A DNA stretch of 64,000 nt, taken from Clostridiales bacterium (GTDB lineage Bacteria; Bacillota; DSM-16504; Desulfitibacterales; JAICDB01). The DNA lies in assembly GCA_020063565.1 (NCBI GenBank), contig JAICDB010000001.1, positions 33,056 through 97,055 of the forward strand, in the 5' to 3' direction. The notes under the pieces are model-generated. The model saw only the letters and a list, made by a program, of their open reading frames with translations, was not told where the DNA came from and ran no database searches. Each line of letters starts with the position of its first letter. Position 1 is the stretch's first letter. A program made the position numbers and the translations under genes. Below, one piece after another: positions 17,175 to 60,621 of the stretch.

Positions 17175-17221
17175 GTGAGCTGGTCTCTCAATGCAAGAGG
17201 CTATAGCTTGAGGATGATGGT

Positions 17222-42184: not shown

Positions 42185-42237
42185 TTGAAATATGTGTTCT
42201 TTACATTATAATAAAAGTAAAGTTTGTAATATTACAA
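42185..42237 (+). promoter_or_regulatory. gntR promoter with a perfect palindromic operator just downstream of the -10
   Basis: TTGAAA (42185-42190), 16-nt spacer, TATAAT (42207-42212), then the 14-bp perfect palindrome TTGTAATATTACAA (42224-42237), which fits the GntR-type GT..AC architecture. Confidence 0.65.
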
Positions 42238-43201: not shown

Positions 43202-43268
43202 TTGTAATATTACAAATTGTAATATTACAAAAGAATTTTTGCAATAATTAAATATTGCAAAATTACAA
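43202..43268 (+). promoter_or_regulatory. Operator array: two tandem perfect TTGTAATATTACAA palindromes plus a degenerate third copy and a 10-bp-arm inverted repeat
   Basis: The perfect copies are at 43202-43215 and 43217-43230, a 15-bp period. TTGCAAAATTACAA lies at 43255-43268. TTTTGCAATA / TATTGCAAAA is an inverted repeat at 43237-43262. Confidence 0.7.
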
Positions 43269-44524: not shown

Positions 44525-44560
44525 TAGCAACTAGATAAAATTTTTGGGAGAGGTGTTAGT

Positions 44561-45412: not shown

Positions 45413-45463
45413 TTGGTTGTTGACCAGTAATTGGTTGTGCCAAGCATGAAAGGGAGTGTAAAT

Positions 45464-46570: not shown

Positions 46571-46696
46571 AAATCTTTAGACTTCATAAAGGGGGTGGGG
46601 TAAAGAGTAAAAGATAACAAGTCAGTCTTAATAAAATTCTAGGAATGTAAATTACGGGACGATTTAATCTATTTAATTTATGGGAGGGTGAACAAT

Positions 46697-47962
46697 TTGA
46701 ACTTCAAGAAGCTGAGTGTGTTGGCAATTGTAGTATTGTTGGTTGGTGCATTTGTTGTAGGTTGTGGTGGAGGAAATGATGAACCTGCAGATCAAGGCGC
46801 AGATTCCGGTGAAAAACAAGTAACAATTAGATTTGCTCACTGGCGTGGAGAAGATAAGGAAGCATTTGAAAAAGTAATTGCTAAGTTCAATGAAGAATAT
46901 CCAAACATCAAAGTTCAGCAGGATATTAGTGGCTCAGAGCAGTACAGAGCAAAAATACAAGCAGAATTGCAATCAGATGCCGGACCTGACGTTTTCACTA
47001 CTTTCCCCGGTGCACATTTTGCTACTTTACAGGAAGCAGGAGTATATGCCGATCTTTCAGGCGCTGAATTCCTGGATCGTTTCTCCCCTCACCTGTTACT
47101 GGCAGGACAGGCTGATGGAAAACAATATGCAGTTCCATACCAGCTGGTATTCAATATCCCCGTATACAATAAAGGGTTATTTGAAAAAGCAGGTGTAGAG
47201 CCTGCAGACAGTTGGGAAGGATTCTTGGAAATGTGTCAGACTTTAAAGGATAACGGTATTACACCTATCATCTTTGACAGTGAAATTGGCCCCGGCCAAT
47301 TTATGAACCCAATGTTAATGAACAATATGCCTACCGATGATGCCTTAACCAGGGTAGAAAAAGGCGAGCTTAAGTTGACAGATGACTGGTTCGTTAAAAC
47401 TCTTGCTCAATTTAAAGAACTTAAGGACAAAGGATTTATGCAGGATGACGTACTTGGAACCAGAAAAGCTGGCGCTGCTGCGTTATTTGCTCAGGAACAA
47501 GGCGCCATGTTAGCTCAAGGGTCATATATGATGGCATCTAACAAACAGCAAAACCCCGATATCAAGCAGGGACTACTTGCACCAATAACAGTACCGGCAG
47601 ATCAAGCAAAGTATGAAGGTATCCATACTTCAACATTTATGATTGGTATTAATGCAAAATCCGAAAAACAAGAAGCTGCTAAGAAGTTTATGGAATTCTT
47701 GTTTAGACCGGAAATTTCCGCAATGTATGCTAATGTAACAGGACAAATGTTGACAGTTAATGGTGTTGAATATGAATCGCCTGAATTAAATGAACAGGCT
47801 AAGTGGCTAGAGAAGAAGACATTATTCCAGCCTAGATACACTTTGACAGTTCAAGAAGTTGAGGATGCAATAGTAAACTCAATTAAAGACGTATTAGGTG
47901 GTATGTCGCCTGAAGAAGCTGCTGCTAAGGCTCAGGAAGAAGTTGAAAGATCTATTAAATAA
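46697..47962 (+). CDS. Extracellular solute-binding lipoprotein (carbohydrate family 1)
   Basis: TTG 46697 lies 9 nt after GGGAGG. The lipoprotein signal has the lipobox FVVGC, and the body is a typical sugar SBP. Confidence 0.85.
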   Translation: MNFKKLSVLAIVVLLVGAFVVGCGGGNDEPADQGADSGEKQVTIRFAHWRGEDKEAFEKVIAKFNEEYPNIKVQQDISGSEQYRAKIQAELQSDAGPDVFTTFPGAHFATLQEAGVYADLSGAEFLDRFSPHLLLAGQADGKQYAVPYQLVFNIPVYNKGLFEKAGVEPADSWEGFLEMCQTLKDNGITPIIFDSEIGPGQFMNPMLMNNMPTDDALTRVEKGELKLTDDWFVKTLAQFKELKDKGFMQDDVLGTRKAGAAALFAQEQGAMLAQGSYMMASNKQQNPDIKQGLLAPITVPADQAKYEGIHTSTFMIGINAKSEKQEAAKKFMEFLFRPEISAMYANVTGQMLTVNGVEYESPELNEQAKWLEKKTLFQPRYTLTVQEVEDAIVNSIKDVLGGMSPEEAAAKAQEEVERSIK

Positions 47963-48040
47963 GGTTTAGAGGGATACTTTCAGCGACAAGAGAGAGGGCA
48001 TGTACCTCTCTCTTATCCTGATAACTAAGGAGGAAAAAAT

Positions 48041-48919
48041 ATGAAAAAGTACTGGGGGCTCTTACCATTTATCATACCAGGGGTCATATTATATACAATC
48101 TTTTTTGCCATACCCTTAGTTTCCTCACTGGCTCTTAGTTTTACAGACTGGAACGGTATATCCCCTGATTATAATTTTGTTGGCTTAAGCAATTATGTTG
48201 AGATGATTACAGATGACCCTATTTTCCATCAAACATTTGGTAACAACCTAAAATACATGTTTTTTGTAGTTATCTTCCAGACATTATTTGCACTTATTTT
48301 TGCCATGTTTTTGGCTAAAAACAGTAAACTCAATGTTTTCTACAGGGCGCTATTCTTTTTCCCCACTGTTATCGCTTCAGTTTCGGTGGCTTTTATCTGG
48401 ATCTTTGTTTATGATCCAAGCATCGGTTCATTAAATACAATCCTTAAATTATTTGGCCTGGACTTTTTGAAACAGTCCTGGTTGGGGGACAAAAACATTG
48501 CAATTTACAGCCTTGCTATAACACAGGTTTGGATGCATACTGGACAGGTGATGATAATCTTTATAGCAGGTTTACAATCTATACCAAAATCACTGTATGA
48601 GGTTGCCAGAATAGAAGGAGCATCAAGGTGGCAGACCTTCCGTAATGTAACATGGCCGCTTTTAGCTCCTGCTGCAACAATTGTTGTAGCATATACCACA
48701 TTGCAGTCATTCAAGGCATTTGACCTCATTCTGGCAATGACCGATGGTGGACCATCCTATGCAACTGAAATATTATCACTCTTTATTTACCACGAAGCAT
48801 TTAGAAACTTCAAATTTGGCTATGCTGCAGCATCAGCGGTGATCTTCTTAATTATCGTATCATTGATTACAATAATTCAATTTAGAATTTTAAATGCCAA
48901 TAAGGTAACCTACAATTAA
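48041..48919 (+). CDS. Sugar ABC permease (UgpA/MalF type)
   Basis: 292-aa ORF with six TM helices and the EAA-loop sequence EVARIEGASRWQTFRNVTWPLL. Confidence 0.9.
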   Translation: MKKYWGLLPFIIPGVILYTIFFAIPLVSSLALSFTDWNGISPDYNFVGLSNYVEMITDDPIFHQTFGNNLKYMFFVVIFQTLFALIFAMFLAKNSKLNVFYRALFFFPTVIASVSVAFIWIFVYDPSIGSLNTILKLFGLDFLKQSWLGDKNIAIYSLAITQVWMHTGQVMIIFIAGLQSIPKSLYEVARIEGASRWQTFRNVTWPLLAPAATIVVAYTTLQSFKAFDLILAMTDGGPSYATEILSLFIYHEAFRNFKFGYAAASAVIFLIIVSLITIIQFRILNANKVTYN

Positions 48920-48933
48920 GGGGTGTATATCAA

Positions 48934-49806
48934 GTGAGTAATTCAAAATTAGATTTACAAAAAGCAGACAAAAAACCAAAAGAAAATATTACGAAGGTTG
49001 ATATTTGGAGACAGTTTCCTCTCCTCATTTATGCAATAATTATCATTACACCTCTTTCACTGGTATTTTTTGCAACTTTTAAAAACCTTAAGCAGCTATA
49101 TTCAGATCCTTTGGGGGTACCTGAAAGTTGGAGCCTTGCCAACTATAAAGCGCTCTTTGCAAATGAGAATATGTTGATATACTTTAAAAACAGTGTAATA
49201 GTAACGTGTATTTCTGTTTTCAGTATTCTTTTACTTGCAAGTATGATTGCCTATGCAATAGTAAGATTACCGAAGTGGATAGGAAATATAGTCTTTGGGT
49301 TTGTAGTAGTGGGAATGATGGTACCTACTCAGGTGAATATGATACCACAGTATCTTTTACTGGATAGACTTAATCTATTGGATAAGCATCTGGGGTTAAT
49401 CTGCGTAACGGTGGCTACATTTTTACCTATTGCAGTATTTATTTTAACAGGATTTATGAAAACTTTGCCGAAAGGTTTAATTGAAGCCGCAAGCATCGAT
49501 GGCGCCTCACACTGGCAAATTTACTCAAGGGTGATGTTGCCTTTATCCGGTCCGTCTCTTGCTACGACAGCTATTTTCTGCTTTGTTATTGTCTGGAACG
49601 ATCTTCTTTATCCGCTGTTGTTCATAAAGTCGGACAGCTTAAAGACAATGCCCCTGGCGCTGCTAGAATTCCAGGGTCAGTATTTGACAAACTACCCAAT
49701 GATTTTCTCGGGAGTAGTGGTAGCTTCTATTCCGATGATTATAATTTATGTTTTCCTTCAGCGCTACTTTATTGCCGGTATGACAGCAGGATCTATGAAA
49801 GGATAA
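48934..49806 (+). CDS. Sugar ABC permease (UgpE/MalG type)
   Basis: 290-aa ORF with the EAA-loop sequence EAASIDGASHWQIYSRVMLPL. Confidence 0.9.
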   Translation: MSNSKLDLQKADKKPKENITKVDIWRQFPLLIYAIIIITPLSLVFFATFKNLKQLYSDPLGVPESWSLANYKALFANENMLIYFKNSVIVTCISVFSILLLASMIAYAIVRLPKWIGNIVFGFVVVGMMVPTQVNMIPQYLLLDRLNLLDKHLGLICVTVATFLPIAVFILTGFMKTLPKGLIEAASIDGASHWQIYSRVMLPLSGPSLATTAIFCFVIVWNDLLYPLLFIKSDSLKTMPLALLEFQGQYLTNYPMIFSGVVVASIPMIIIYVFLQRYFIAGMTAGSMKG

Positions 49807-49932
49807 GTAGAAGTATATTTATATTATGTAAGATTAATGTAATGTCCGGGAACTGTGGAGGGTTTCACTGTTTCTGGAGCTGTGTTAAATGCAAAGTTTG
49901 TAATAATACAAGATTTCTTAGGAGGGCAGTTT

Positions 49933-51273
49933 ATGGAAACCTTAAAACCTGTATACCTGCCAATGGGTAGAACTACATTCCATATGGAAAGTGCCACTGA
50001 TTACTACAACCGTTCCTGTAAAGTAATCAAAGAACTTGCCCCGGGGGCAGAAATGCCGCAAGAATTACTTACTGATTTAGATATGTTAAACAACTATCTT
50101 GATGAAATCAAAAATAAGGATATAGATATTGCAGTTGTTCAAAGTACTACCTTTGTAGATGCTACCTTTACAATAGAAATCGTCAGAAAGCTTTCCTGTC
50201 CCGTATTAGTATGGTGTGTGCGAGAACCCGTTATTGATGGTAGTCGCCTCAGATTAAACTCTCTAACCGGTGGTTTTGCTGCCGGCAATACTTTAAGTAC
50301 CTTTGGCAGAACATTTGATTTTGTATTCGGTAATCCCGAAGAGGAACAAGTGCAGAAAAAATTATCTGCATACTTCAAAGCTGCATCTGTTGTAAAGGGA
50401 TTGAAGAACTTGACTTTAGGGGTAGTAGGAAATGTACCTCCGGGCTTTTTCTTTGGAGAAGAACTCAGTATGAATCTCTTAAATGTCATAGGTGCAAAAT
50501 TGGAACGCTTAGACCTTAACAGTCTGATTCAAGAGGCGAAAGAATTGAAAACCGGTGAGTATGAAGAGGCACTTGCAGAATTGAAGGAGAAAATCTTCGG
50601 CATTGAAGAAATTGAAGAGGAACAAGTAGATAAAAACGCTCGCTTTAGAACAGTTCTTAAAAAACATGTGGAAGAAAAAGGAATTAAGGCAATTGCTAGT
50701 CGTTGCTGGCCTACAGTATTCCAGGAGTATAATGCTGCAATTTGTGCCACCCTTTCTTTATTTACTGAAGAAGGAATTGTATCTTCCTGTGAAGCTGATA
50801 TTGGCGGCGCAATCAGCATGTATATCCAGAAACAAATTACAGGAGAACCTCCATATTTCGGAGACCCTGTTTCATTAGATGAAGAAAAGAATTCTATTAT
50901 TTACTGGCATTGTGGTGCAGGAGCTTGTTCACTTGCTAGAACCGATACAGGCGCCCGCGCAGGAAGACATCCTAACCGTAAGCTTGGGCTGTCATTGGAA
51001 TTTGGTCTTAAGGACGGCAGGGTTACAGTTTGCCGCTTCGGTAAGGGGCCAAACGGTTACCGTCTTTTTATCATGGCTGGTGAAGCGCTGGATGAACCTC
51101 AAAAGTTTCTTGGAACATCTGTTGAAGTACGCCCTGACGGAAATGCAGCTGAAATTGTAAATTCAGCAATTAATGAAGGTTGGGAACCTCACTTTTCAGT
51201 GGTTTACGGAGATATAACCGAGGAGTTAAAGGCTGTAGCCAAACTATTAAACATTGAAGTTGTAGAGTATTAA
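49933..51273 (+). CDS. L-fucose/L-arabinose isomerase-family aldose-ketose isomerase (short form)
   Basis: The ORF was trimmed to METLKPVYLP after an AGGAGGG RBS. The family resemblance (SSCEADIGGA, YWHCGAG, GWEPHFSVVYGD) is recalled by eye and not verified. Confidence 0.6.
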   Translation: METLKPVYLPMGRTTFHMESATDYYNRSCKVIKELAPGAEMPQELLTDLDMLNNYLDEIKNKDIDIAVVQSTTFVDATFTIEIVRKLSCPVLVWCVREPVIDGSRLRLNSLTGGFAAGNTLSTFGRTFDFVFGNPEEEQVQKKLSAYFKAASVVKGLKNLTLGVVGNVPPGFFFGEELSMNLLNVIGAKLERLDLNSLIQEAKELKTGEYEEALAELKEKIFGIEEIEEEQVDKNARFRTVLKKHVEEKGIKAIASRCWPTVFQEYNAAICATLSLFTEEGIVSSCEADIGGAISMYIQKQITGEPPYFGDPVSLDEEKNSIIYWHCGAGACSLARTDTGARAGRHPNRKLGLSLEFGLKDGRVTVCRFGKGPNGYRLFIMAGEALDEPQKFLGTSVEVRPDGNAAEIVNSAINEGWEPHFSVVYGDITEELKAVAKLLNIEVVEY

Positions 51274-51288
51274 GAGAGGGGACCTGTG

Positions 51289-52401
51289 ATGCTTGCCGCC
51301 GATTTGCAAAAGGAGATAGCAGTAAAAGAAGAACGAGTGAACAAGCTAATAAAAGAAAAAGGTTTAGACGGTATTTGCCTTTTTAAGGCTGCTAACTTTC
51401 ACTGGTTTACAGCCGGTGGAACCAACAGGGTTGTGACAGGTTCTGAAAAGGGATGTGCCGTAATATTAATTATGGAAGGTAAGAAGTATTTAATTTCACC
51501 TTCCAATGAAATCGACAGGCTCCTTGCAGAACAACTCCCCGATCAAGGTTTTGAGAGATGTACTTTCTACTGGTATGAAACTCCCATGAAAGTAATCAAA
51601 GAACTAGCCGGAGATAAGAGGCTAGGTAGTGATATAGCAGTTCCGGGAATGACTGAGATCGGAGTTGATATAGACAGGTTGCGCTTTTCCCTGACATCGC
51701 AGGAAGTGGAAAAGGCAAGAAAAATTGCGGAAATCTCCTCTCGTGAAACAGCAGCATTATGTGCTAGTCTCAAACCAGGCATGACCGAATATGAGATAAC
51801 GGCTTTACTTTCTGAAACACTTTTAAGAGAAGGGATAAATCCTGCAGTACTACTTGTTGGTACTGATGAGAGGGTGTTTACCTGCAGGCACCCGGTACCT
51901 GTAGAAAAGAAACTTCAAAAGTATGCACTCATCAGTCTGGTAGGGGAAAAGTGGGGATTGCACGTTACACTGACTCGTGCAGTATATTTTGGCAGCCTGC
52001 CGGAAGATTTGAAGAAAAAACAGGAACTTGTCAATCGGGTGGATGCCACATTTATAGCAAATACCATTGCAGGAAAGATGAGTGATGATGTATTTAATGC
52101 AGGTAAAGAAGAATATGCTTGTGTTGGCTATCCTGATGAATGGAAAATGCATCACCAGGGTGGAGCCATAGGATATGCTCCCCGTGAATATCGTGGCGGG
52201 GAAGGCAGAAATGAAAAAGTTATAGTAAATCAAATGTTTGGGTGGAACCCAACACTGCAGGGAACAAAAAGTGAAGATACAATTTTAGTTAATGCTAAAG
52301 GAATTCCAACTATAATAACGAATGTACCCGGGTGGTGGCCTACCCAGGAAATTAACGTAAATGATTCAATTATAAATCGTCCCATGATTTTAGAAATATA
52401 G
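51289..52401 (+). CDS. M24 (creatinase/prolidase, pita-bread fold)-like protein lacking most metal ligands
   Basis: 370-aa ORF with a creatinase/prolidase-type N-domain and a pita-bread C-domain. By-eye alignment to PepP/prolidase motifs shows D->L, D->T, H->G and E->N at four of the five metal-ligand positions. Confidence 0.6.
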   Translation: MLAADLQKEIAVKEERVNKLIKEKGLDGICLFKAANFHWFTAGGTNRVVTGSEKGCAVILIMEGKKYLISPSNEIDRLLAEQLPDQGFERCTFYWYETPMKVIKELAGDKRLGSDIAVPGMTEIGVDIDRLRFSLTSQEVEKARKIAEISSRETAALCASLKPGMTEYEITALLSETLLREGINPAVLLVGTDERVFTCRHPVPVEKKLQKYALISLVGEKWGLHVTLTRAVYFGSLPEDLKKKQELVNRVDATFIANTIAGKMSDDVFNAGKEEYACVGYPDEWKMHHQGGAIGYAPREYRGGEGRNEKVIVNQMFGWNPTLQGTKSEDTILVNAKGIPTIITNVPGWWPTQEINVNDSIINRPMILEI

Positions 52402-52410
52402 GTTATTTTC

Positions 52411-52468
52411 AGGCCGCCCCCTTTCCTCCTAATCCTCCTCCCGGGATTGGGGGCTGGCTGTTTTTTTA
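52411..52468 (+). terminator. Strong intrinsic terminator inside the operon, between the M24-like gene and the moaD-like gene
   Basis: CAGGCCGCCCCC ... GGGGGCTGGCTG stem enclosing a C/T-rich loop, followed by TTTTTTT. Confidence 0.65.
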
Positions 52469-52497: not shown

Positions 52498-52722
52498 ATG
52501 ATTACCGTTAAATTTAGCCCTGGAACAAAAGCCTATAAAAAACACGGTTCCCGGATTGAAATGACTTGGCAAGACGGAACTATTGATGATTTACTTGCCA
52601 AATTGGCAGTTGACAAAAGGGAAGTAGGTAGTGTTCTTGTCAATAATTCTCCCAAAAATTTAGATGAAAAATTGCAGGATAACTGTGAAGTTTATATCCT
52701 CCCTGTAATTTGCGGTGGTTAA
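52498..52722 (+). CDS. ThiS/MoaD-like beta-grasp protein ending in Gly-Gly
   Basis: 74-aa ORF trimmed to MITVKF. The C-terminus is ...LPVICGG. It lies immediately upstream of the ferredoxin and AOR genes, as in AOR maturation/accessory arrangements. Confidence 0.6.
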   Translation: MITVKFSPGTKAYKKHGSRIEMTWQDGTIDDLLAKLAVDKREVGSVLVNNSPKNLDEKLQDNCEVYILPVICGG

Positions 52723-52752
52723 TAGAAACTGGAAGATTAGGGTGGTGAAATA

Positions 52753-53235
52753 ATGTCCAGAAAAGTATTGACAGTTGAAAAAAGCAAGTGTATTGGTTGC
52801 AGAATTTGTGAACAGTGGTGTAGCTTGACCCATCACGGTGTAATAAACCCTGCCAAAGCAAGGGTAAAGGTAACTCGAATTGAAGAATCCGGTGTTGATG
52901 TGCCTGTTATTTGTACCCAGTGCAGCAAGGCTGCATGTATAGCAGCATGTCCTGAAGGCGCTTTATCCAAAAATTCTAAAACAGGTGCAATAAAGGTAGA
53001 TAAGGAAAAATGTACTGCGTGCAGAAAATGTGTAACTGCTTGCCCTAATGCTGCAATATCAGTCCACCCGGAAGATGAGTATGTTTTAATCTGTGATTTG
53101 TGTAACGGCAAGCCCAAATGTGTGGAAAACTGTCCTGAAAAAGCTCTGCAGTATCTCCCCATTGAAACCAGTGAACGAATTTATAGAAGCAAAGTAGTCA
53201 GGGATACTGCAAAAGGGGGTAAGCGCTGTGGCTAA
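52753..53235 (+). CDS. 4x[4Fe-4S]-type polyferredoxin (AOR electron-transfer subunit)
   Basis: 160-aa ORF with four Cys clusters (CIGCRICEQWC, CTQCSKAACIAACP, CTACRKCVTACP, CDLCNGKPKCVENCP). It overlaps the AOR start. Confidence 0.85.
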   Translation: MSRKVLTVEKSKCIGCRICEQWCSLTHHGVINPAKARVKVTRIEESGVDVPVICTQCSKAACIAACPEGALSKNSKTGAIKVDKEKCTACRKCVTACPNAAISVHPEDEYVLICDLCNGKPKCVENCPEKALQYLPIETSERIYRSKVVRDTAKGGKRCG

Positions 53236-55030
53236 TCTAGGAGCAGTCAACGGAAAACTTTTAAGGGTTAACCTAACAACTGGTAACGCTATAGTAGAGG
53301 ATATACCTCAAGAAATATATACAAAATATTTTGGCGGCAGGGGTGCCGGGACCAGGTATCTCTTCGATGAAGTGCCTACAGATACTGATCCTTTAAGTGA
53401 AAATAACAAGCTGATATTTTTAAACGGCCCTATGGCCGGTACCATGGCTCCCGGAAGCAACAAAATAGCAGTGACTTTTAAATCCCCTGCTACAAACGGT
53501 ATTGCTTCATCACTATGTGGTGGTCATTTTGGTCCTGAGTTGAAGTTTGCAGGTTATGATGCTTTGATAATTGAAGGAAAATCTGAAAAGCCTGTTTACC
53601 TCTGGATTCAAAATGATGAAGTTCAAATTAAAGATGCTTCTTCATACTGGGGCAAAAATATTCCTGAAACAGGAGAAGGAATTAAGAAGGAACTTGGTGG
53701 AGACGAAAACATTCATGTAGCTTGTATCGGCCCGGCAGGAGAAAACTTAAATGTAATAGCCTGCATTACAGCCGAAAGACACAGGGAATTTGGACGCCCC
53801 GGTGCCGGAGCTGTTATGGGTTCTAAGAACTTAAAAGCAATAGCTATCAAGGGAACTCAAGATGTTAAGCCTGCTAAAGCAGGAAAAATGGCTAATTATG
53901 TTAAGGAACTGTATAAAGAGTTTGCAAACAATCCCAAGGCAAACGCCAGAAGAAACTATGGAACAGTTGAAATGGTAGACGGTATCAATAAGCTCGGATT
54001 TTGGTCCACAAGAAACTTCAGCCAGGGGCAGTTTGAAGGTGCCGACAAATTAACAGGTCCAATGATGAGGCAGGAGATAGTTGTAGAAGACACTTCCTGT
54101 TATGCATGTCCTATTGCCTGCGGTAAAGTTTCCTGTGTAGAATCCGAAAAATACGGTACAGTTCATATCGAAGGGCCTGAATTTGAGACATTGGGGCTTT
54201 TAGGGCCAAACTGCGGCATAGGTGATTGGGAATATATCCTGAAAGCCGCAGAAGTATGTGACTATAACGGTATGGATACGATTTCTGCCGGGGCAACAGT
54301 ATCCATGGCTATGGAATGCTATGAAAAAGGAATAATTACAAAAGAAGATACCGGTGGTATAGAATTAAAATTCGGAAACGGTGAAGCATTGATTGCAATC
54401 CTGGAGAAAATGGCAAAAAGAGAAGGAATCGGCGATATTTTGGCTCAAGGGTTAAAGGTAGCTGCAGAGAAGTTTGGTGCGCCTGAACTGGCAATGCACA
54501 GCAAGGGAGTTTCGCCTGCAACCTATGACCCAAGAGGCAGCAAGGGGATGGCAGTAACCTATGCCACTTCACCTAAGGGTGCCCATCATATGATATCACC
54601 GACTATGGGGGCAGAAATTGCAGGTGACCGTTTTGCAGAAACAGGAAAGGCAGCTATGATCAAGGATACCCAGATCCAAATGGCGCTTGTCGATTCACTT
54701 GGTTACTGTTCAAGTATGAGATTTGTAATGCAGGTCGACCATCAGCTTGAACTCTTCAAGCTTTCCACAGGTTTGGAAATGACTAAGGAAGACTTTTATA
54801 CTGTGGGAGAACGGGTGCTCAACCTTGAAAGGCAGTATAACGTAAACTGCGGCATGACCAGAAAAGACGACAGCCTCCCCAAGAGATTCCTCAAGGAAGC
54901 AATGGAGGACGGTCCTAGCAAAGGACAAACAATAAACCTGGATTTAATGCTCGATGAGTTTTATGCGGAAATGGGCTGGGATAAAGACGGTAAACCAACA
55001 GAAGAAAAATTGGCAAGCCTTGGATTATAA
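53228..55030 (+). CDS. Tungsten-type aldehyde:ferredoxin oxidoreductase (AOR family)
   Basis: 600-aa ORF with the AOR N-terminal domain (GKLLRVNLTTG...YFGGRGAG), the cluster-binding context CYACPIACGK, and full-length resemblance to the AOR family. Confidence 0.85.
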   Translation: MANLGAVNGKLLRVNLTTGNAIVEDIPQEIYTKYFGGRGAGTRYLFDEVPTDTDPLSENNKLIFLNGPMAGTMAPGSNKIAVTFKSPATNGIASSLCGGHFGPELKFAGYDALIIEGKSEKPVYLWIQNDEVQIKDASSYWGKNIPETGEGIKKELGGDENIHVACIGPAGENLNVIACITAERHREFGRPGAGAVMGSKNLKAIAIKGTQDVKPAKAGKMANYVKELYKEFANNPKANARRNYGTVEMVDGINKLGFWSTRNFSQGQFEGADKLTGPMMRQEIVVEDTSCYACPIACGKVSCVESEKYGTVHIEGPEFETLGLLGPNCGIGDWEYILKAAEVCDYNGMDTISAGATVSMAMECYEKGIITKEDTGGIELKFGNGEALIAILEKMAKREGIGDILAQGLKVAAEKFGAPELAMHSKGVSPATYDPRGSKGMAVTYATSPKGAHHMISPTMGAEIAGDRFAETGKAAMIKDTQIQMALVDSLGYCSSMRFVMQVDHQLELFKLSTGLEMTKEDFYTVGERVLNLERQYNVNCGMTRKDDSLPKRFLKEAMEDGPSKGQTINLDLMLDEFYAEMGWDKDGKPTEEKLASLGL

Positions 55031-55096: not shown

Positions 55097-55993
55097 ATGC
55101 CAGGATTGGTAAGTGTTTTAGTGGCTGCAACGGGTAATGGACTCTATCTAACTTTAAGTAAGCTTGTATTAGCTTCAAACTCCCCGGTACTCTTTGGTTT
55201 TTTTGTAATGGGCCTTACGGTACTTGTGATAGGAAGCTATATTGTCTATAAATTCGGTTTTAAAAAAGCTGTAGAAATCATTTTAAATTACTGGGTATTT
55301 CTGGTTATAGTGGGGTGTTTCAGTTCTTTATTAAATTTTCTTAATTTTGCAGGTTTAATATACAGCAGTGCCATTAACTCGGCAATTATTAACAGGCTCG
55401 ATGTCTTTTTTACTGCCTTACTTGGAGGAATATTTTTTGGTGAAAGACTTCAAAAGAATGATTGGCTAGCAGTACTTTTTATGATGCTAGGTGTATTTTT
55501 GGTATTAAGGATTGATTTTTCGCAGTTAACATTAAATACTGGAGATATTTTCTTTCTTATAAGCACTTTTTTGCAGGCGGTTAATGCCCAGTTCATACGT
55601 TATAAACTTACAGAAGTCCCCGGGCCTATCATAGCATTTTGTAACACAGGTATTTGCACAACTGTATATTTGTTTTCAAGTATCTTTTTGGAATACTGGG
55701 TTCAAATACAAGGTTTTGCCGGTTTTAGATTAATAACAATTATCTGCGGTTTACTCTTTGTTTTACAATTACTCTTGTATTATGGCGGGCTGAAAAAATT
55801 ACCTACCTGGCTGGCAAGAGCTTTGTATCTAGTAGCTCCGGTAGTTGGTACTGTCAGCAGCATTCTGTTATTAAACGAAAATTTTTATATAGAACAACTC
55901 TATGGAATGCTGCTTGTAGGAATTGGTGTTATCATTATATCTCTAGGACAGAAGAAAGTTAAAAAAAATCAAATATTGAAAGAAAGTATATAA
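55097..55993 (+). CDS. EamA/DMT-family transporter (10 TM)
   Basis: 298-aa hydrophobic ORF with duplicated 5-TM EamA-like halves. Confidence 0.75.
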   Translation: MPGLVSVLVAATGNGLYLTLSKLVLASNSPVLFGFFVMGLTVLVIGSYIVYKFGFKKAVEIILNYWVFLVIVGCFSSLLNFLNFAGLIYSSAINSAIINRLDVFFTALLGGIFFGERLQKNDWLAVLFMMLGVFLVLRIDFSQLTLNTGDIFFLISTFLQAVNAQFIRYKLTEVPGPIIAFCNTGICTTVYLFSSIFLEYWVQIQGFAGFRLITIICGLLFVLQLLLYYGGLKKLPTWLARALYLVAPVVGTVSSILLLNENFYIEQLYGMLLVGIGVIIISLGQKKVKKNQILKESI

Positions 55994-56323: not shown

Positions 56324-57814
56324 ATGGCAAAATATCTTTTGGCACTTGACCAGGGGACAACCAGTTCCAGGGCAATTCTTTTCAACCGCAAGGGAGAAAT
56401 TATTAAACAGTATAACCAGGAATTTAAACAGATTTACCCTCAACCTGGTTGGGTGGAACATGACCCGGAAGAAATCTGGGAAACACAACTGGCAGTAGCA
56501 CAGAAGGTATTAAAGGAAACCGGTGTGCAACCTGAAGAGGTTGCTGCCATAGGAATTACAAATCAAAGGGAAACCACCGTTATTTGGGATAAAAACACTG
56601 GTAAACCACTCTACAATGCCATAGTTTGGCAGTGCCGCAGAACAGCTGCAATCTGTAATGAATTAAGAGAAAAGGGTTTGGCCGAACCAATCCGAAAGAA
56701 GACAGGCCTCGTTTTGGATGCTTATTTTTCAGGTACCAAAATTAAGTGGCTTCTGGATAACGTTGAAGGCTTAAGAAAAAAGGCAGAAAATGGTGAAGTT
56801 TTTTGCGGAACGATAGATTCCTGGCTAATTTACAAGCTTACAGGTGGAAAGGTCCATGCAACCGATTACTCAAATGCCTCCAGAACAATGCTCTATAACA
56901 TTCATGAATTAAAATGGGATGAGGGGATACTTAAAAAACTAGATATTCCCGCAAAAATTTTACCTGAAGTTAGACCTTCCAGTGGCGATTTTGGTGTTAC
57001 TGTAAAAGAACTTTTTGGAGCCCAAATCCCAATTGCAGGTGTAGCAGGCGACCAGCAGGCGGCTTTATTCGGACAATGTTGTTTTGAAGAAGGTATGGCT
57101 AAAAACACCTATGGAACAGGTTGCTTTATGCTTAAAAATACAGGTACAGAACCTGTTCAGTCTCAAAACGGGCTGTTGACCACAATTGCTTGGGGGATGG
57201 GAGATAAAGTATATTATGCCCTGGAGGGAAGCATCTTTATTGCAGGTGCCGTTGTGCAGTGGCTTCGTGATGAACTGGGAATGATTAAAGATGCCGCGGA
57301 ATCTGAAGAGCTGGCTTTAAAGGTAGAAGATACCGGAGGCGTGTACCTTGTACCGGCTTTTGTAGGTTTGGGAGCGCCCCACTGGGATATGTACGCCAGG
57401 GGTACAATGGTTGGCATAACAAGGGGAACCAATAAAAATCATATTGTACGTGCAGCGCTAGAGGCAATTACGTATCAAGTTAAAGATGTTGTGCAGGTAA
57501 TGCTTGAAGATTCCGGTCTTGATCTCAAGAAACTTCGTGTAGACGGTGGAGCTGTAAAAAATAACTTCCTCATGCAGTTCCAATCTGATATGTTACAGGT
57601 TCCTGTAGAAAGACCGCAAGTAAATGAAACAACTGCCCTGGGAGCAGCATTTTTAGCAGGCCTGGGGATTGGTTTTTACAGCGACATTAGAGAAGTGGAA
57701 GAAACCTGGCAGTTGGATAAGACCTTTGAGCCCCAAATGGATGAATTACAAATGGAAGAAAAATACCAGGGCTGGAAAAAGGCAGTAGATAGGGCAAAAG
57801 GTTGGGTATCGTAG
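56324..57814 (+). CDS. glpK: Glycerol kinase
   Basis: 496-aa ORF; [18 protein letters not shown] and the rest are typical of the FGGY family and GlpK. The RBS is GGGGAGGG. Confidence 0.95.
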
Positions 57815-57830
57815 AAGGAGGAATGACTCC

Positions 57831-59354
57831 ATGGGAAACTGGTTTAAAGTTATTATCATCGGGGGAGGCGCGACAGGTACCGGTATTCTCCGTGATCTGG
57901 CACTGAGGGGAGTAGATTGCCTGCTTCTTGAAAAAGAAGACTTTGCGACCGGTACAAGCGGCCGTTTTCACGGACTTTTGCACAGCGGTGCCCGTTATGC
58001 GGTTAAAGATCCCCATTCCGCCGAAGAATGCATCCAGGAAAACAAAATTTTAAAACAAATTGCTCCCGGTTGTGTGGAAGATACAGGAGGCTTGTTTGTC
58101 GCTACAGGTGAGGATGACCTTGCATACAGTGAAAAATGGCTTGAGGGTTGTAAAAATGCAGGGATAGAAGTGCAAGAAATATCTCCTCAGGAAGCGCTCT
58201 TGGAAGAACCTCGCCTGGCTAAGAATATAAAAAAGGTTTACCGCGTACCGGATGCTGCAATAGACGGTTTTCGCCTTTGTGCGGCTAATGTACGTTCTGC
58301 CGAAAAGAAAGGCGCTCAGGCCAGGAATTATACTGAAGTTATAGATATTATAAAAGAAGGTAACAAAGTAAAAGGAGTCATAGCCAAAGATTTGGTAACG
58401 GGAAAAGAAGAAGAAATTTACTGTGACATGATAATAAATGCAGCAGGGGCCTGGGCAGGGAAAATAGCTGCCATGGCCGGAGTGGATGTAAATATCGTGC
58501 CTGATAAAGGTGTTCTAGTTGTCTTCAATCATAGATTTACAAAAAATGTAATAAACAGGCTTAGGCCTCCCGGTGATGGTGATATTTTCGTTCCCCATGG
58601 CAGTGTAACTATTTTTGGAACAACCTCCAGAGAAACAACCGACCCTGAAGATAACGGAGCTACTAAAGAGGATGTATTAGCATTACTTGGAGAAGGTAGA
58701 AAGCTCATACCTGATTTAGATGAAATAAGGCTTATCAGAGCCTTTGCAGGGGTCCGCCCCCTCTACCAGCCGGATGGCGGGGGAACCGGGAGAAATGCAA
58801 CCAGAGATTTTTCTTTAATCGACCATGAAAAAGAGGCTGGGATTACAGGCATGGTCTCAGTAGTTGGCGGAAAACTTACCACATTTCGCCTGATGGCAAA
58901 TGCAGTTTCTGATTATGTCTGTACTATTCTCAAGATACCCGGTGAAAGTGTTACCGACCAAGAACCTTTAGTTGATGATTTTTGTAGACTAAAGCCCAAT
59001 TCGAAGAAGGAATTCCTTTGCCAGTGCGAGCAGGTAACTGAAGATATGCTTTTAGAAGCTGTAGAAGGCAAAAAGCGTATCTCATTAAGCGATGTCAGGC
59101 GTCTGACACGCCTGGGAATGGGACCCTGTCAGGGGACATTCTGTACCTTTAGGGCGGCCGGATTTTATCAAAAACAGAAGAAACTATCAGTTTCTCAAGT
59201 GAATGCTATGTTAGAAGAACATGTGCAGGAGCGCTGGAAAGGGAATCATCCTGTTCTTTGGGGAGGCCAGGCCCAGGAAGCTGAGATTACACGCGGAGTT
59301 TATTTAAGTCTTCTTAACCTGGATAAGCTGGAGAGGTGTGATGGTAATGTATGA
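57831..59354 (+). CDS. glpA: Anaerobic glycerol-3-phosphate dehydrogenase subunit A
   Basis: 507-aa ORF with the FAD fold IIIGGGATGTG and a C-terminal BFD-like [2Fe-2S] segment (CQCEQVT...GMGPCQGTFC). Confidence 0.85.
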   Translation: MGNWFKVIIIGGGATGTGILRDLALRGVDCLLLEKEDFATGTSGRFHGLLHSGARYAVKDPHSAEECIQENKILKQIAPGCVEDTGGLFVATGEDDLAYSEKWLEGCKNAGIEVQEISPQEALLEEPRLAKNIKKVYRVPDAAIDGFRLCAANVRSAEKKGAQARNYTEVIDIIKEGNKVKGVIAKDLVTGKEEEIYCDMIINAAGAWAGKIAAMAGVDVNIVPDKGVLVVFNHRFTKNVINRLRPPGDGDIFVPHGSVTIFGTTSRETTDPEDNGATKEDVLALLGEGRKLIPDLDEIRLIRAFAGVRPLYQPDGGGTGRNATRDFSLIDHEKEAGITGMVSVVGGKLTTFRLMANAVSDYVCTILKIPGESVTDQEPLVDDFCRLKPNSKKEFLCQCEQVTEDMLLEAVEGKKRISLSDVRRLTRLGMGPCQGTFCTFRAAGFYQKQKKLSVSQVNAMLEEHVQERWKGNHPVLWGGQAQEAEITRGVYLSLLNLDKLERCDGNV

Positions 59355-60621
59355 TGTTATAGTAATAGGTTCCGGTCTTTCAGGTTTAATATCTGCTTCT
59401 GTTTCCTCAAAGGCAGGTAAAAGTGTACTGGTAATTTCTAAAGGTCTCGGTAATATTTATTCTTCATCGGGATTTATAGATATTCTGGGATATTATCCTC
59501 CTGAAAGAAAACTGCCCCGTAAAAATATCAAAGAAGGCATGAAAGAATTATGTGCTTTTGGATCCCAGCACCCGTATAAAATTATCGGGCAAGAAGCTGT
59601 AGATGAGGCATGTGACTTTTTTATTAATTTAACTGAAATAATCGGCTACCCTTATTCAGGAAATAGTGAAGAAAACAAATTGCTTCCTACTGCTGCGGGA
59701 GCGCTTGCGCCTACTGCACTTGTTCCGCCTACTGCAACCTGTAATATTGCTGACTTTGAAAAGATTCTAGTGGTTGGTTTTGAAGAATATATAGACTTTT
59801 ACCCTTCCTATGTGGCAGAAAATCTGAAATGTGAATTTAAAAAACACAATTTAAATGCAGATGTGGAAAGTAAAACCGTGAAACTGGGTCTAGATACAAC
59901 AAGGGAACTTAATAGTTATGATATAGCTGTTCAAATGGAAAATTCCCAAATTTTTAACAGAGTTGTTGACGTATTAAAGGGTAAAGTGGGTAAAAATACA
60001 CTGGTGGCTATGCCCGCAGTCCTAGGGGTCACAAAATGGCAGCAGGTGTACTATGGCTTGAAAGAAGAACTAAACTGTGAAATTCTGGAGATTCCCACTT
60101 TGCCCCCTTCAATAACAGGTATGCGACTGGCTGAGGGTATAAAAGATTATCTTTCATCCCTTGAGGTAGAATTTCATATGGGCTATCAGGCTAAGGGAAT
60201 AACAGGGGATGGAACCTGCCAGGGAATTACAGTGGAATCTGCCGGAGGAAAAATTAAAACCTATAAAGCTGAAAGTTATGTCCTGGCCACCGGGGGGATA
60301 CTTGGAGGTGGAATTAACTCCACTCAAAGAACTTTTGAAGAAATGGTTTTCGGTATTCCGGTAGCAGCGCCTGACGGGAACTGGTCCGTAAATGACTTTT
60401 TTGCACCTGGCGGGCAGCCATATGCTTACAGCGGGATTAAGGTTAACGAAAAGCTTAATCCCCTTGATGAAAAGGGAAATGTTTTATTAGCAAATGTATA
60501 TTGCGCCGGAAAAAATTTAGCAGGTTATGACCCCTTTGTAGAAAAAAGCGGTAACGGGGTAGCTCTCACAACTGGTTATCAAGCTGGAGTGGCTGCCGTT
60601 AAAGGATGTGATCGCAAGTGA
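59341..60621 (+). CDS. glpB: Anaerobic glycerol-3-phosphate dehydrogenase subunit B
   Basis: MYDVIVIGSGLSG flavoprotein N-terminus. The start is ambiguous (GTG 59338, ATG 59341 or ATG 59347) and overlaps the glpA stop. Confidence 0.8.
   Translation: MVMYDVIVIGSGLSGLISASVSSKAGKSVLVISKGLGNIYSSSGFIDILGYYPPERKLPRKNIKEGMKELCAFGSQHPYKIIGQEAVDEACDFFINLTEIIGYPYSGNSEENKLLPTAAGALAPTALVPPTATCNIADFEKILVVGFEEYIDFYPSYVAENLKCEFKKHNLNADVESKTVKLGLDTTRELNSYDIAVQMENSQIFNRVVDVLKGKVGKNTLVAMPAVLGVTKWQQVYYGLKEELNCEILEIPTLPPSITGMRLAEGIKDYLSSLEVEFHMGYQAKGITGDGTCQGITVESAGGKIKTYKAESYVLATGGILGGGINSTQRTFEEMVFGIPVAAPDGNWSVNDFFAPGGQPYAYSGIKVNEKLNPLDEKGNVLLANVYCAGKNLAGYDPFVEKSGNGVALTTGYQAGVAAVKGCDRK

What the first reader, a model, noticed from the sequence alone, without database searches (positions are those of the whole stretch)
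52498..55030. MoaD-like / polyferredoxin / tungsten-type AOR module at the end of a sugar operon: possible ferredoxin-dependent sulfolactaldehyde (or other sugar-derived aldehyde) oxidase
Seen in sequence: a 74-aa beta-grasp protein ending in GG, a four-cluster ferredoxin and a 600-aa AOR-family protein are translationally coupled (the ferredoxin and AOR genes overlap). They follow the catabolic genes on the same strand, and an EamA exporter comes next.

Established knowledge: AOR enzymes oxidise aldehydes to acids with ferredoxin as acceptor. MoaD-like and ferredoxin-like genes accompany bacterial AOR operons. The known fates of SLA are NAD(P)H-dependent reduction (YihU type) or NAD(P)+-dependent oxidation (SlaB type).

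Inference: the aldolase product here would be oxidised by a W-pterin enzyme, conserving the low-potential electrons as reduced ferredoxin. That is attractive for a fermenter or acetogen, and I do not know it to have been described for sulfoglycolysis. No FAD/NAD subunit (AorC type) is present.
Basis: partly seen in the sequence, partly recalled or inferred. Interest (0 to 1): 0.7.

Follow-up and report, generated by a model that had tools for sequence, protein, structure and literature searches.

The report
Tungsten-type aldehyde oxidoreductase inside sulfoquinovose operon
A subsurface anaerobe's gene cluster for eating the plant sulfo-sugar sulfoquinovose lacks the usual NAD-dependent enzyme for its aldehyde by-product and carries a tungsten-type, iron-sulfur-linked aldehyde oxidoreductase instead, an arrangement conserved in six related lineages and not found in the searched literature.

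Summary
A 74-aa ThiS/MoaD-like protein ending in GG (52498-52722), a 16-Cys polyferredoxin (52753-53235) and a 600-aa AOR (53228-55030, 8-nt overlap) lie in a same-strand array, between a sulfo-EMP2 sulfoquinovose (SQ) gene set and an EamA exporter plus glpK-glpABC.

The 15 nearest AORs (64-74% identical) form one clade (95/100 NJ bootstraps). All 8 members whose context was read (about 6 lineages) follow the SQ isomerase and an M24-like gene, despite rearranged gene order.

AOR-type loci lack YihU-, ALDH- and Fe-ADH-type enzymes. Related sulfo-EMP2 loci that have those enzymes lack AOR. A sister-clade AOR replaces an ALDH next to a YihU-like dehydrogenase and TRAP transporter.

Sulfolactaldehyde (SLA) is the pathway's only free aldehyde. 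The best reading is therefore a two-subunit (WorSL/AorAB-type) SLA-oxidising enzyme that makes sulfolactate for export.

Caveats:
- No clade-specific sulfonate-binding residues were found.
- A hairpin plus T7 run precedes the module in this window only.
- One syntenic locus (L024) has a transporter in place of the module.
- The "ferredoxin" is an enzyme subunit; the final electron acceptor is unknown.

No paper in the library links SQ or SLA with AOR or tungsten.

The parts
52412..52467 (+). Hairpin (GGCCGCCCCC ... GGGGGCTGGCT) followed by a T7 run, between the M24-like gene and the module. It could be a partial terminator/attenuator or an mRNA-stability element.
   Evidence: Sequence and fold (whole-region z-score -0.33, so it is judged by shape plus T-run only). 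The terminator scan missed it because of its large loop. It is not conserved: the gaps in relatives are 20-49 nt in L013, L016 and L021, and 118 nt without a T-run in L015/L017/L020. No Rfam family matches, Moco riboswitch included.
52498..52722 (+). ThiS/MoaD-family beta-grasp protein, 74 aa, C-terminus CGG. It is presumably a sulfur carrier or maturation factor for the pyranopterin cofactor (inferred).
   Evidence: Pfam ThiS 29 bits against a cutoff of 22.5. Orthologues at 41-42% identity occupy the same position in L015, L016, L017 and L020, and all end in CGG. The gene is absent from L013, L018 and L021. MoaD-like aorD/aorE genes accompany aorABC (PMC6365974).
52753..53235 (+). Polyferredoxin small subunit (WorS/AorA type), 160 aa, 4 x [4Fe-4S].
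   Evidence: 16 Cys in four motifs. Best solved relatives are AOR-associated small subunits: 9mqx_E 124 bits, WOR5 small subunit 6x6u_B 117 bits, AorA 8c0z_C 113 bits. It is 61-74% identical in the SQ-linked loci and 47-48% in the sister-clade loci.
53228..55030 (+). AOR-family large subunit (tungsto-bispyranopterin plus [4Fe-4S]), 600 aa. Proposed sulfolactaldehyde-oxidising enzyme.
   Evidence: AFOR_N and AFOR_C domains. 1aor_A 491 bits, 9mqx_D 481 bits, AorB 8c0z_A 423 bits. Cys291/294/298/494, Glu320, His454 and Tyr433 are conserved. Clade and synteny evidence.
55097..55993 (+). EamA-family transporter, candidate sulfolactate exporter.
   Evidence: Pfam EamA. Homologues at 41-46% identity are in the AOR-type loci L013 and L018/L023. 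In L024 an MFS transporter occupies this position.
49933..51273 (+). Sulfoquinovose isomerase (SftI/SqvD type). The likely true start is ATG 49933, after an AGGAGGG ribosome-binding site.
   Evidence: NF048012 536 bits, matching residues 33-472 of the longer ORF; sequence.
51286..52401 (+). M24/creatinase-fold protein of unknown role, always next to the SQ isomerase.
   Evidence: Weak Pfam hits (Peptidase_M24 31 bits, Creatinase_N 28 bits). It is present in all AOR-type loci and also in L024 and L026. The Asp/Asp/His metal ligands are not conserved in the alignment with 2zsg.
43328..45412 (+). PFK-family kinase (sulfofructose kinase candidate, PPi-type signature) and class II aldolase (SqiA-like), which would release DHAP plus sulfolactaldehyde.
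   Evidence: NF010675 495 bits; F_bP_aldolase 272 bits. The aldolase scores 175 bits to the characterised SFP aldolase HpSqiA 8q58.
45431..49806 (+). ABC importer: ATPase, solute-binding protein and two permeases.
   Evidence: Translations. Orthologues at 60-77% identity are in the related loci.
36359..38368 (+). GH31 sulfoquinovosidase (YihQ type).
   Evidence: PRK10426 983 bits against a cutoff of 553. 829 bits to E. coli YihQ 5aed 'Sulfoquinovosidase'.
42259..43035 (+). GntR/UTRA (HutC-type) regulator. The likely true start is 42259.
   Evidence: Pfam GntR plus UTRA. Homologues in the related loci are 254-271 aa.
43202..43230 (.). Two tandem copies of the palindrome TTGTAATATTACAA before the kinase gene. 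Further copies are at 42224-42237 (before the regulator gene) and 49898-49911 (one mismatch, before the isomerase gene). This is the putative operator of the GntR regulator.
   Evidence: 4 matches against 0.04 expected. The same 13-mer lies directly in front of the separately promoted Fdx-AOR unit of L018.
56324..61802 (+). glpK and glpABC: disposal of the glycerol released from sulfoquinovosyl glycerol.
   Evidence: Translations. The same genes follow the AOR in L015, L016, L017 and L020.

Best explanation
The module encodes a two-subunit tungsten-type aldehyde oxidoreductase. It consists of the AOR large subunit and a four-cluster WorS/AorA-type polyferredoxin subunit, with a MoaD/ThiS-like helper for the pterin cofactor.

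The enzyme would serve as the sulfolactaldehyde-oxidising step of a sulfo-EMP2 sulfoquinovose pathway. The proposed route is:
1. YihQ releases SQ and glycerol from sulfoquinovosyl glycerol.
2. The isomerase makes sulfofructose.
3. The PFK-family kinase phosphorylates it.
4. The class II aldolase gives DHAP plus sulfolactaldehyde (SLA).
5. The AOR oxidises SLA to sulfolactate and passes two low-potential electrons through its iron-sulfur chain to a ferredoxin-level acceptor.
6. The EamA transporter exports sulfolactate.

Shown here: the genes, their cofactor-binding residues, the SQ identity of the locus, the clade-wide linkage, and the absence of the usual enzymes. Inferred: the substrate, the direction of the reaction, tungsten as the metal, the final electron acceptor, and the exported product.
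For: (1) The locus is a sulfo-EMP2 locus. It has a YihQ (983 bits), an SftI-type isomerase (536 bits), a PFK-family kinase and a class II aldolase. These are the Pfam families that define sulfo-EMP2 in PMC10665668.

(2) SLA is the only free aldehyde of that pathway (established pathway knowledge). The 64-kb window has no YihU-family, ALDH or Fe-ADH homologue.

(3) AORs P0001-P0015 form one clade (95/100 NJ bootstraps). All 8 contexts read (window, L013, L015, L016, L017 = Thermanaerosceptrum fracticalcis, L018, L020, L021) place Fdx-AOR beside the SQ isomerase and M24-like genes, with the kinase, aldolase, GH31 and ABC genes nearby. This holds although gene order differs between lineages.

(4) Complementary distribution. 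L026 has ALDH plus a YihU-like gene and no AOR. The gut-type loci L029-L037, L055 and L056 have YihU-like plus Fe-ADH and no AOR. The AOR-type loci have none of these enzymes.

(5) An independent swap. The sister-clade locus L022 reads YihU-like, DUF3870, TRAP, Fdx, AOR. L026 reads TRAP, YihU-like, ALDH, with 68% (dehydrogenase) and 54% (DctP, DctM) identity between the shared parts.

(6) A further relative, L104, has Fdx-AOR among an SsuA-family ABC transporter, two YihU-family dehydrogenases, a LarA-like gene and an Ldh_2 protein whose best hit is L-sulfolactate dehydrogenase.

(7) L013 and L015 add a LarA-family racemase (above the cutoff of the 'malate racemase' model; malate is isosteric with sulfolactate) and a split SAF plus GD_AH enzyme with the two-subunit layout of SuyAB. 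Both would need sulfolactate as substrate.

(8) Co-regulation. Gaps of 20-49 nt between the M24-like gene and the module in L013, L016 and L021 leave no room for separate transcription. Where the module has its own promoter (L018), the SQ-locus palindrome lies in front of it.

(9) All AOR catalytic and cluster residues are intact.
Against: - There is no biochemical, transcript or growth evidence. No RNA runs hold this sequence.
- No clade-specific residue suggests a sulfonate pocket. Only I569 is strictly clade-specific, and the active-site columns match about 100 AORs from other contexts.
- The AOR is 53-59% identical to more than a hundred AORs beyond its own and sister clades, and characterised AORs are broad-spectrum (PMC12318220).
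- L024 has the same synteny but an MFS transporter where the module sits, and no SLA enzyme within 10 kb. The pathway can therefore be encoded without an in-locus AOR.
- In the window, a hairpin plus T7 run separates the module from the upstream genes.
- The SuyAB-like proteins are named only 'altronate dehydratase/UxaA family' by all sources.
- The L104 sulfolactate dehydrogenase and SsuA hits are below their curated cutoffs.
Confidence: 0.65

Rival explanations
1. The enzyme is a generic, broad-spectrum aldehyde-detoxifying AOR. It travels with the locus as a safeguard against any reactive aldehyde, and the physiological SLA enzyme is encoded elsewhere in the genome.
For: The active-site columns cannot be told apart from about 100 AORs of other contexts. 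Characterised AORs take many aldehydes (PMC12318220; PMC6365974). L024 shows a syntenic locus without any in-locus SLA enzyme.
Against: Linkage in 8 of 8 clade members across rearranged loci, and mutual exclusion with YihU/ALDH, are not expected for an accessory detox gene. SLA would in any case be the main aldehyde present when the locus is expressed.
Confidence: 0.17
2. The AOR oxidises another sugar-derived aldehyde, such as glyceraldehyde or lactaldehyde, because the locus handles a non-sulfonated 6-deoxy or related sugar.
For: The isomerase scores below the equivalog cutoff (536 against 700). The aldolase scores equally well against FBP aldolases (177 bits to 7ncc) and SFP aldolases (175 bits to 8q58).
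Against: The GH31 is far above the YihQ equivalog cutoff and scores 829 bits to the E. coli sulfoquinovosidase. The gene set equals the published sulfo-EMP2 Pfam set. Glycerol is handled by glpK/glpABC without a free aldehyde.
Confidence: 0.08
3. The AOR runs in reverse. It would reduce sulfolactate or another acid to the aldehyde with reduced ferredoxin, using it as an electron sink.
For: AOR-family enzymes can reduce acids under strongly reducing conditions (PMC6365974; PMC10816221, title and abstract).
Against: No alcohol-forming reductase (YihU or Fe-ADH type) is in any AOR-type locus to pull the reaction. The pathway produces the aldehyde, not the acid. An exporter follows the gene.
Confidence: 0.04

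Closest known systems
Sulfo-EMP2 pathway of Bacillota (SqvD/SftI isomerase, SqiK kinase, SqiA class II aldolase, YihQ; Liu et al. 2021 as summarised in PMC12890257 and PMC10665668)
   Same: Same Pfam set (PF02952, PF00365, PF01116, GH31), same intermediates, same phylum.
   Different: The described pathway ends with YihU (reduction to DHPS) or SlaB (NAD(P)+-dependent oxidation). Here neither is present, and an AOR module occupies the operon. Extra features are an M24-like partner of the isomerase and a kinase with the PPi-PFK signature.
SlaB/GabD-type sulfolactaldehyde dehydrogenase (ALDH superfamily)
   Same: It would catalyse the same net conversion, SLA to sulfolactate, at the same pathway position. 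L026 carries ALDH genes where L022 carries Fdx-AOR.
   Different: Unrelated fold and cofactors: pyranopterin metal centre and iron-sulfur clusters instead of NAD(P)+. The electrons leave at about ferredoxin potential rather than as NAD(P)H.
AOR sensu stricto: P. furiosus AOR (1AOR), Acetomicrobium mobile WorSL within WorABCSL (9MQX), Aromatoleum aromaticum AorABC (8C0Z)
   Same: 491, 481 and 423 bits to the large subunits. The small subunit is closest to 9mqx_E, WOR5-S and AorA. All cluster and catalytic residues are present, and a MoaD-like gene sits in the operon as in aorABCDE.
   Different: There is no AorC (FAD/NAD) subunit and no BfuABC module, so the layout is a plain WorSL within the AOR branch. 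PMC12318220 says its AOR clade 87 contains no heterodimeric WorSL enzymes; whether this protein falls in that clade was not tested. Unlike those enzymes, this one sits in a defined catabolic operon that points to one substrate.
GAPOR of the archaeal modified Embden-Meyerhof pathway
   Same: Same logic: ferredoxin-linked, non-phosphorylating oxidation of the C3 aldehyde left by aldolase cleavage. SLA is the sulfonate analogue of glyceraldehyde-3-phosphate (established pathway knowledge).
   Different: It is a different AOR subfamily. The window protein scores 43 bits against the GAPOR model, whose cutoff is 1300.
P. furiosus WOR5 (6X6U), crystallised with taurine in the active site
   Same: It is a precedent for a sulfonate bound at a tungstopterin site and for a WorSL two-subunit layout (PMC12318220).
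   Different: It is a distant clade (239 bits). The proposed chemistry on taurine is different, and WOR5 has no link to sugar catabolism.

Membership tests
AOR family (tungsten aldehyde:ferredoxin oxidoreductases) | Full-length AFOR_N plus AFOR_C domains | tested here: met
   268 and 461 bits, residues 9-210 and 224-600.
AOR family (tungsten aldehyde:ferredoxin oxidoreductases) | Four Cys ligands of the [4Fe-4S] cluster (CxxCxxxC plus a distal Cys) | tested here: met
   C291, C294, C298 and C494 align with the 1AOR motifs CYACPIGCG and DSAGLC. C494 is invariant in all 117 aligned homologues tallied; the columns for C291, C294 and C298 were not tallied.
AOR family (tungsten aldehyde:ferredoxin oxidoreductases) | Catalytic Glu and His, and the conserved Tyr near the metal (Glu311, His444 and Tyr423 in A. 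mobile WorL; PMC12318220) | tested here: met
   E320, H454 and Y433 are conserved. The neighbouring Tyr310 equivalent is Phe here, as in nearly all close bacterial homologues.
AOR family (tungsten aldehyde:ferredoxin oxidoreductases) | Tungsten bis-pyranopterin content and aldehyde-oxidising activity | not testable with these tools
   Needs metal analysis and an enzyme assay.
AOR sensu stricto branch (as against FOR, WOR5, BamB, GAPOR) | Closest to characterised AORs rather than to the other branches | tested here: met
   1aor 491, 9mqx_D 481, 8c0z_A 423 bits, against FOR 335, WOR5 239 and BamB 233 bits. GAPOR model 43 bits against a cutoff of 1300.
WorS/AorA polyferredoxin subunit | Four [4Fe-4S] motifs, and a gene adjacent to or overlapping the large-subunit gene | tested here: met
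   16 Cys in four groups; 8-nt overlap; best solved relatives are AOR small subunits.
AorABC (NAD-reducing, N type) | FAD-containing AorC subunit gene in the operon | tested here: not met
   No such gene lies between 42 and 62 kb, nor in any of the 8 related loci.
WorABCSL (electron-bifurcating, BF type) | BfuABC-type genes next to worSL | tested here: not met
   None in the locus or in the related loci (same calls).
MoaD/ThiS sulfur-carrier family | Beta-grasp family match and C-terminal Gly-Gly | tested here: met
   Pfam ThiS 29 bits against a cutoff of 22.5. The C-terminus is CGG in the window and in four orthologues. No partner MoaE/MoeB-type gene is adjacent. No NCBIfam equivalog cutoff is reached.
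Sulfo-EMP2 locus | YihQ-type sulfoquinovosidase | tested here: met
   983 bits against a cutoff of 553; 829 bits to 5aed.
Sulfo-EMP2 locus | PF02952 SQ isomerase, PF00365 kinase, PF01116 class II aldolase | tested here: met
   The isomerase scores 536 bits, below the 700-bit equivalog cutoff, so it is met at family level only.
Sulfo-EMP2 locus | NAD(P)-dependent SLA reductase (YihU) or dehydrogenase (SlaB) | tested here: not met
   No tblastn hit in the 64 kb or in the AOR-type loci.
SlaB-type SLA dehydrogenase | ALDH superfamily fold (PF00171) | tested here: not met
   The candidate enzyme is an AOR. It may work like SlaB but is not a member of that family.

The most novel reading that the evidence does not exclude
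A whole sub-branch of bacterial two-subunit AORs may be dedicated sulfolactaldehyde:ferredoxin oxidoreductases. This branch comprises the SQ-linked clade and its neighbours, which sit in loci with YihU-like dehydrogenases, TRAP or SsuA-type transporters, DUF3870, a LarA-like racemase and a sulfolactate-dehydrogenase-like gene.

If so, tungsten would be a required element for anaerobic C3-sulfonate and sulfoquinovose cycling in subsurface Bacillota. The route would be a 'sulfo-GAPOR' glycolysis. Combined with a PPi-type kinase, it would be an energy-thrifty variant of sulfoglycolysis.
Probability: 0.3. Interest if true: 0.78.

Novelty: new variant of a known kind. Interest (0 to 1): 0.66.

Why it matters
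Sulfoquinovose is produced on a gigatonne scale. All described routes dispose of sulfolactaldehyde with NAD(P)-dependent enzymes. A pterin and iron-sulfur enzyme at this step would have several consequences:
- It would add a third enzymology for the fate of SLA.
- It would release the electrons at ferredoxin potential, usable for H2 formation or ion-gradient coupling.
- It would make SQ degradation in some anaerobes depend on tungsten.

It would also give a bacterial AOR a defined physiological substrate. That is rare in a family known mostly for broad in-vitro specificity.

A cultured carrier, Thermanaerosceptrum fracticalcis DRI-13 (locus L017, CP045798.1), makes the hypothesis directly testable.

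Tried and rejected
- The genome-contig scan with the AOR returned only distant AORs (32-42% identity, L001-L012) with no SQ genes. It gave no information about the clade.
- Public runs holding the sequence are all DNA metagenomes (subsurface, soil, oil facility). No RNA run was found, so co-transcription could not be checked.
- Rfam found no riboswitch, Moco/Wco included, in front of the module. The only hit in the window is a cobalamin riboswitch at 16911-17186.
- The search for clade-specific residues found no conserved basic pocket residue. Only I569 is strict, and the looser hits are conservative changes.
- I tried to confirm the SuyAB identity of the split SAF plus GD_AH proteins from database names. 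All sources say altronate dehydratase or UxaA family, so this stays a lead.
- The window's DUF362-Fer4 protein (39370-40440) resembles the NPN-isomerase-like protein of L015 only weakly: 25% identity over 147 aa.
- P0007 could not be looked up. In the tree it sits on near-zero branches with P0008-P0010, so it is probably another start-site version of the same T. fracticalcis gene rather than a paralogue.
- No structure prediction was run. The tool returns no coordinates, so pocket geometry could not have been analysed.


Full report
**What is in the sequence**

On the + strand, 52498-52722 encodes a 74-aa protein ending in CGG. It matches Pfam ThiS above the gathering score. 52753-53235 encodes a 160-aa protein with 16 cysteines in four [4Fe-4S] motifs. 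53228-55030 encodes a 600-aa protein with complete AFOR_N and AFOR_C domains.

The last two genes overlap by 8 nt (GTGGCTAA). The first two are 30 nt apart. An EamA transporter follows at 55097-55993, then glpK and glpABC at 56324-61802.

**The surroundings are a sulfoquinovose locus**

Upstream on the same strand lie these genes:
- a GntR/UTRA regulator;
- a PFK-family kinase;
- a class II aldolase;
- an ABC importer;
- an isomerase that scores 536 bits on NCBIfam's sulfoquinovose isomerase SftI model;
- a divergent M24/creatinase-fold gene.

A GH31 at 36359-38368 scores 983 bits on the YihQ model (cutoff 553). It also scores 829 bits against the E. coli sulfoquinovosidase structure 5aed.

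This is the Pfam set that defines the sulfo-EMP2 pathway of Firmicutes (PMC10665668 and PMC12890257). The glycerol genes fit the glycerol released from sulfoquinovosyl glycerol.

The published pathway ends with a YihU-type reductase or a SlaB-type dehydrogenase. tblastn with YihU-like, ALDH and Fe-ADH seeds taken from related loci finds nothing in the whole 64 kb.

**What kind of AOR it is**

The large subunit is closest to the following solved structures:

| Structure | Bits |
|---|---|
| P. furiosus AOR (1aor) | 491 |
| WorL of Acetomicrobium mobile WorABCSL (9mqx_D) | 481 |
| AorB (8c0z_A) | 423 |
| FOR | 335 |
| WOR5 | 239 |
| BamB | 233 |

It scores 43 bits on the GAPOR model, whose cutoff is 1300. 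The [4Fe-4S] cysteines (C291, C294, C298, C494) and the catalytic Glu320, His454 and Tyr433 are conserved.

The small protein is closest to the AOR-associated small subunits 9mqx_E, WOR5-S and AorA. It is therefore an enzyme subunit forming an internal electron wire, not the free ferredoxin acceptor. No AorC (FAD/NAD) gene and no Bfu-type genes are present.

MoaD-like genes are known from the aorABCDE operon (PMC6365974).

The protein search returned 15 sequences at 64-100% identity, then an abrupt continuum at 63% and below. In an NJ tree these 15 form one clade, with 95/100 bootstraps.

Eight of them could be placed on contigs: the window, L013, L015, L016, L017 (the isolate Thermanaerosceptrum fracticalcis, CP045798.1), L018, L020 and L021. 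In all eight, Fdx-AOR lies beside the SQ isomerase and the M24-like gene. The PFK-family kinase, class II aldolase, GH31, ABC importer and often glpK-glpABC are in the same array.

Gene order differs between lineages:
- L013: isomerase, M24, Fdx, AOR, LarA, GntR, aldolase, kinase.
- L021: aldolase, kinase, ABC, isomerase, M24, Fdx, AOR, GH31.
- L018: M24, EamA, a gap, Fdx, AOR, kinase, GntR.

The linkage has therefore survived rearrangement in about six lineages. Their isomerases are only 32-58% identical to the window's.

**Complementary distribution**

A metagenome scan with an SQ-isomerase alignment gave 80 further loci. Among those with kinase plus aldolase plus isomerase:
- L023 (the L018 type) has Fdx-AOR.
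- L026 has the M24-like gene plus a TRAP transporter, a YihU-like dehydrogenase and two ALDHs, and no AOR.
- Eleven human-gut loci (L029-L037, L055, L056) lack AOR. In ten of them a YihU-like gene was detected; L029, a contig that ends just past the isomerase, showed none. An Fe-ADH was identified in L030, the one gut locus that was annotated.
- L024 has the window's exact synteny but an MFS transporter where ThiS-Fdx-AOR-EamA sits, and no SLA enzyme within 10 kb.

So AOR and the NAD(P) enzymes exclude each other. L024 shows that an in-locus SLA enzyme is not obligatory.

**Neighbouring clades**

The sister pair is not in SQ loci.

L022 reads YihU-like dehydrogenase, DUF3870, TRAP, Fdx, AOR. 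Its dehydrogenase is 68% identical to the one in L026, and its DctP and DctM are each 54% identical. In L026 the same module ends with an ALDH instead of Fdx-AOR. This is a second, independent ALDH-to-AOR replacement, in what looks like a DHPS-oxidising module.

L104 (AOR 57% identical) places Fdx-AOR among the following genes:
- an SsuA-family ABC transporter;
- two YihU-family dehydrogenases;
- a LarA-like protein;
- DUF3870;
- an Ldh_2 protein whose best NCBIfam hit is L-sulfolactate dehydrogenase (318 bits, below the cutoff of 500).

L019 and L103 give no information on this point.

**Hints that sulfolactate is the product**

L013 carries a LarA homologue that passes the cutoff of the 'malate racemase LarAH5' model (525 bits against 462). 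L013 also carries a split SAF (101 aa) plus GD_AH (389 aa) enzyme. L015 has the same split enzyme plus another nickel-pincer isomerase.

From my own knowledge, not tested here:
- Sulfolactate is isosteric with malate.
- SuyAB, the (2R)-sulfolactate sulfo-lyase, is a two-subunit UxaA-family enzyme.
- SQ-derived SLA should give the (S)-acid, so a racemase would be needed.

Database names do not confirm SuyAB identity, so this remains a lead. The window has none of these genes. With the EamA gene next to the AOR, export of sulfolactate is the likely fate here.

**Transcription and regulation**

In the window, a 96-nt gap before the ThiS-like gene holds a GC-rich hairpin followed by T7 (52412-52467). 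No promoter-like site follows it. The module is therefore probably expressed by read-through, possibly attenuated.

The hairpin is not conserved. The corresponding gaps are 20-49 nt in L013, L016 and L021.

The palindrome TTGTAATATTACAA occurs four times in the window at one mismatch or fewer, against 0.04 expected. All four copies are in the SQ locus: before the regulator gene, twice before the kinase gene, and before the isomerase gene.

In L018 the Fdx-AOR pair has its own TTGACA-17-TATAAT promoter-like site. The 13-mer TGTAATAATACAA lies between that site and the start codon, and this is its only occurrence in 21.8 kb. This suggests, but does not prove, control by the same regulator.

**Weak points**

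- Everything rests on gene context.
- No residue pattern sets the clade apart. Only I569 is strictly specific, and the active-site columns equal those of about 100 homologues from other contexts.
- That fits a broad-spectrum enzyme recruited by co-expression, but it equally fits a general detoxifying role.
- The metal, the direction of the reaction, the acceptor and the product are all inferred. An [FeFe]-hydrogenase-like gene lies at 30542-32050, but nothing links it to the module.

**Novelty**

Full-text searches combining sulfoquinovose, sulfolactaldehyde or sulfolactate with tungsten, AOR or ferredoxin found nothing relevant. Two 2026 reviews appeared in these searches. The one checked for these terms (PMC12890257) does not mention ferredoxin, tungsten or AOR and lists only YihU and SlaB for this step.

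The finding is a non-orthologous replacement within a known pathway by a known enzyme family. It is a new variant, not a new kind. Its closest analogy is GAPOR in the archaeal Embden-Meyerhof variant.

Noticed in passing
window 42224-42237, 43202-43215, 43217-43230, 49898-49911; L018 9487-9499: The 14-bp palindrome TTGTAATATTACAA occurs four times at one mismatch or fewer, against 0.04 expected. All copies are in promoter-proximal gaps of the SQ locus. It is probably the operator of the GntR/UTRA regulator. Variants lie before SQ genes in L015, L016, L017, L024 and L026, and before the Fdx-AOR unit of L018.
   Followed up: partly
window 43328-44524: The PFK-family kinase carries GGNDS and PKTIDND, the Asp/Lys signature of PPi-dependent phosphofructokinases. 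It passes the PPi-PFK subfamily model NF010675 (495 bits against a cutoff of 273). It could be a PPi-dependent sulfofructose kinase. It is only 37-39% identical to the kinase of the gut sulfo-EMP2 loci.
   Followed up: partly
window 51286-52401: An M24/creatinase-fold protein always follows the SQ isomerase: in the window, L013, L015-L018, L020, L021, L023, L024 and L026. The gut-type loci lack it. In the alignment with aminopeptidase P (2zsg), the two Asp and the His metal ligands are replaced, so it is probably not a metallopeptidase. Its role in SQ catabolism is unknown.
   Followed up: partly
L022 4861-11803; L104 344-15255; L019 9008-11800: Fdx-AOR pairs of neighbouring clades sit with DUF3870, YihU-family dehydrogenases, TRAP or SsuA-type transporters, a LarA-like gene and a sulfolactate-dehydrogenase-like gene. 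These look like DHPS/sulfolactate loci. DUF3870 recurs in all three.
   Followed up: partly
L013 4958-6223 and 9279-10758; L015 17774-20670: A LarA-family racemase (above the cutoff of the 'malate racemase' model) or an NPN isomerase of group 22 lies next to a split SAF plus GD_AH (UxaA-family) enzyme inside SQ loci. They are candidates for a sulfolactate racemase and a SuyAB-like sulfo-lyase. Database names do not confirm this.
   Followed up: partly
L024 12749-13906: This locus has the same gene order as the window, but a 385-aa MFS transporter occupies the place of ThiS-Fdx-AOR-EamA. No SLA-converting enzyme lies within 10 kb.
   Followed up: yes
window 42133 and 49855 (ORF starts): The mechanical ORF starts of the regulator and the isomerase are probably too far upstream. 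The likely true starts are ATG 42259 and ATG 49933 (AGGAGGG ribosome-binding site), which leaves the operator-like palindromes in intergenic DNA.
   Followed up: yes
window 39370-40440 and 30542-32050 (-): A DUF362 protein with two [4Fe-4S] motifs lies between the yihQ-like gene and the rest of the locus. An [FeFe]-hydrogenase-like gene (Fe_hyd_lg_C plus ferredoxin domains) lies about 20 kb upstream of the AOR. No link to the module was shown.
   Followed up: partly
window 16911-17186: A cobalamin riboswitch (99 bits) sits in front of a long + strand gene array. Further upstream are futalosine-type menaquinone synthesis genes (7297-10313, - strand) and a cytochrome b gene (605-2056).
   Followed up: no
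L015 17430-17696: An 88-aa ORF with an AFOR_C hit lies after glpC. It is probably the remnant of a second AOR gene.
   Followed up: no
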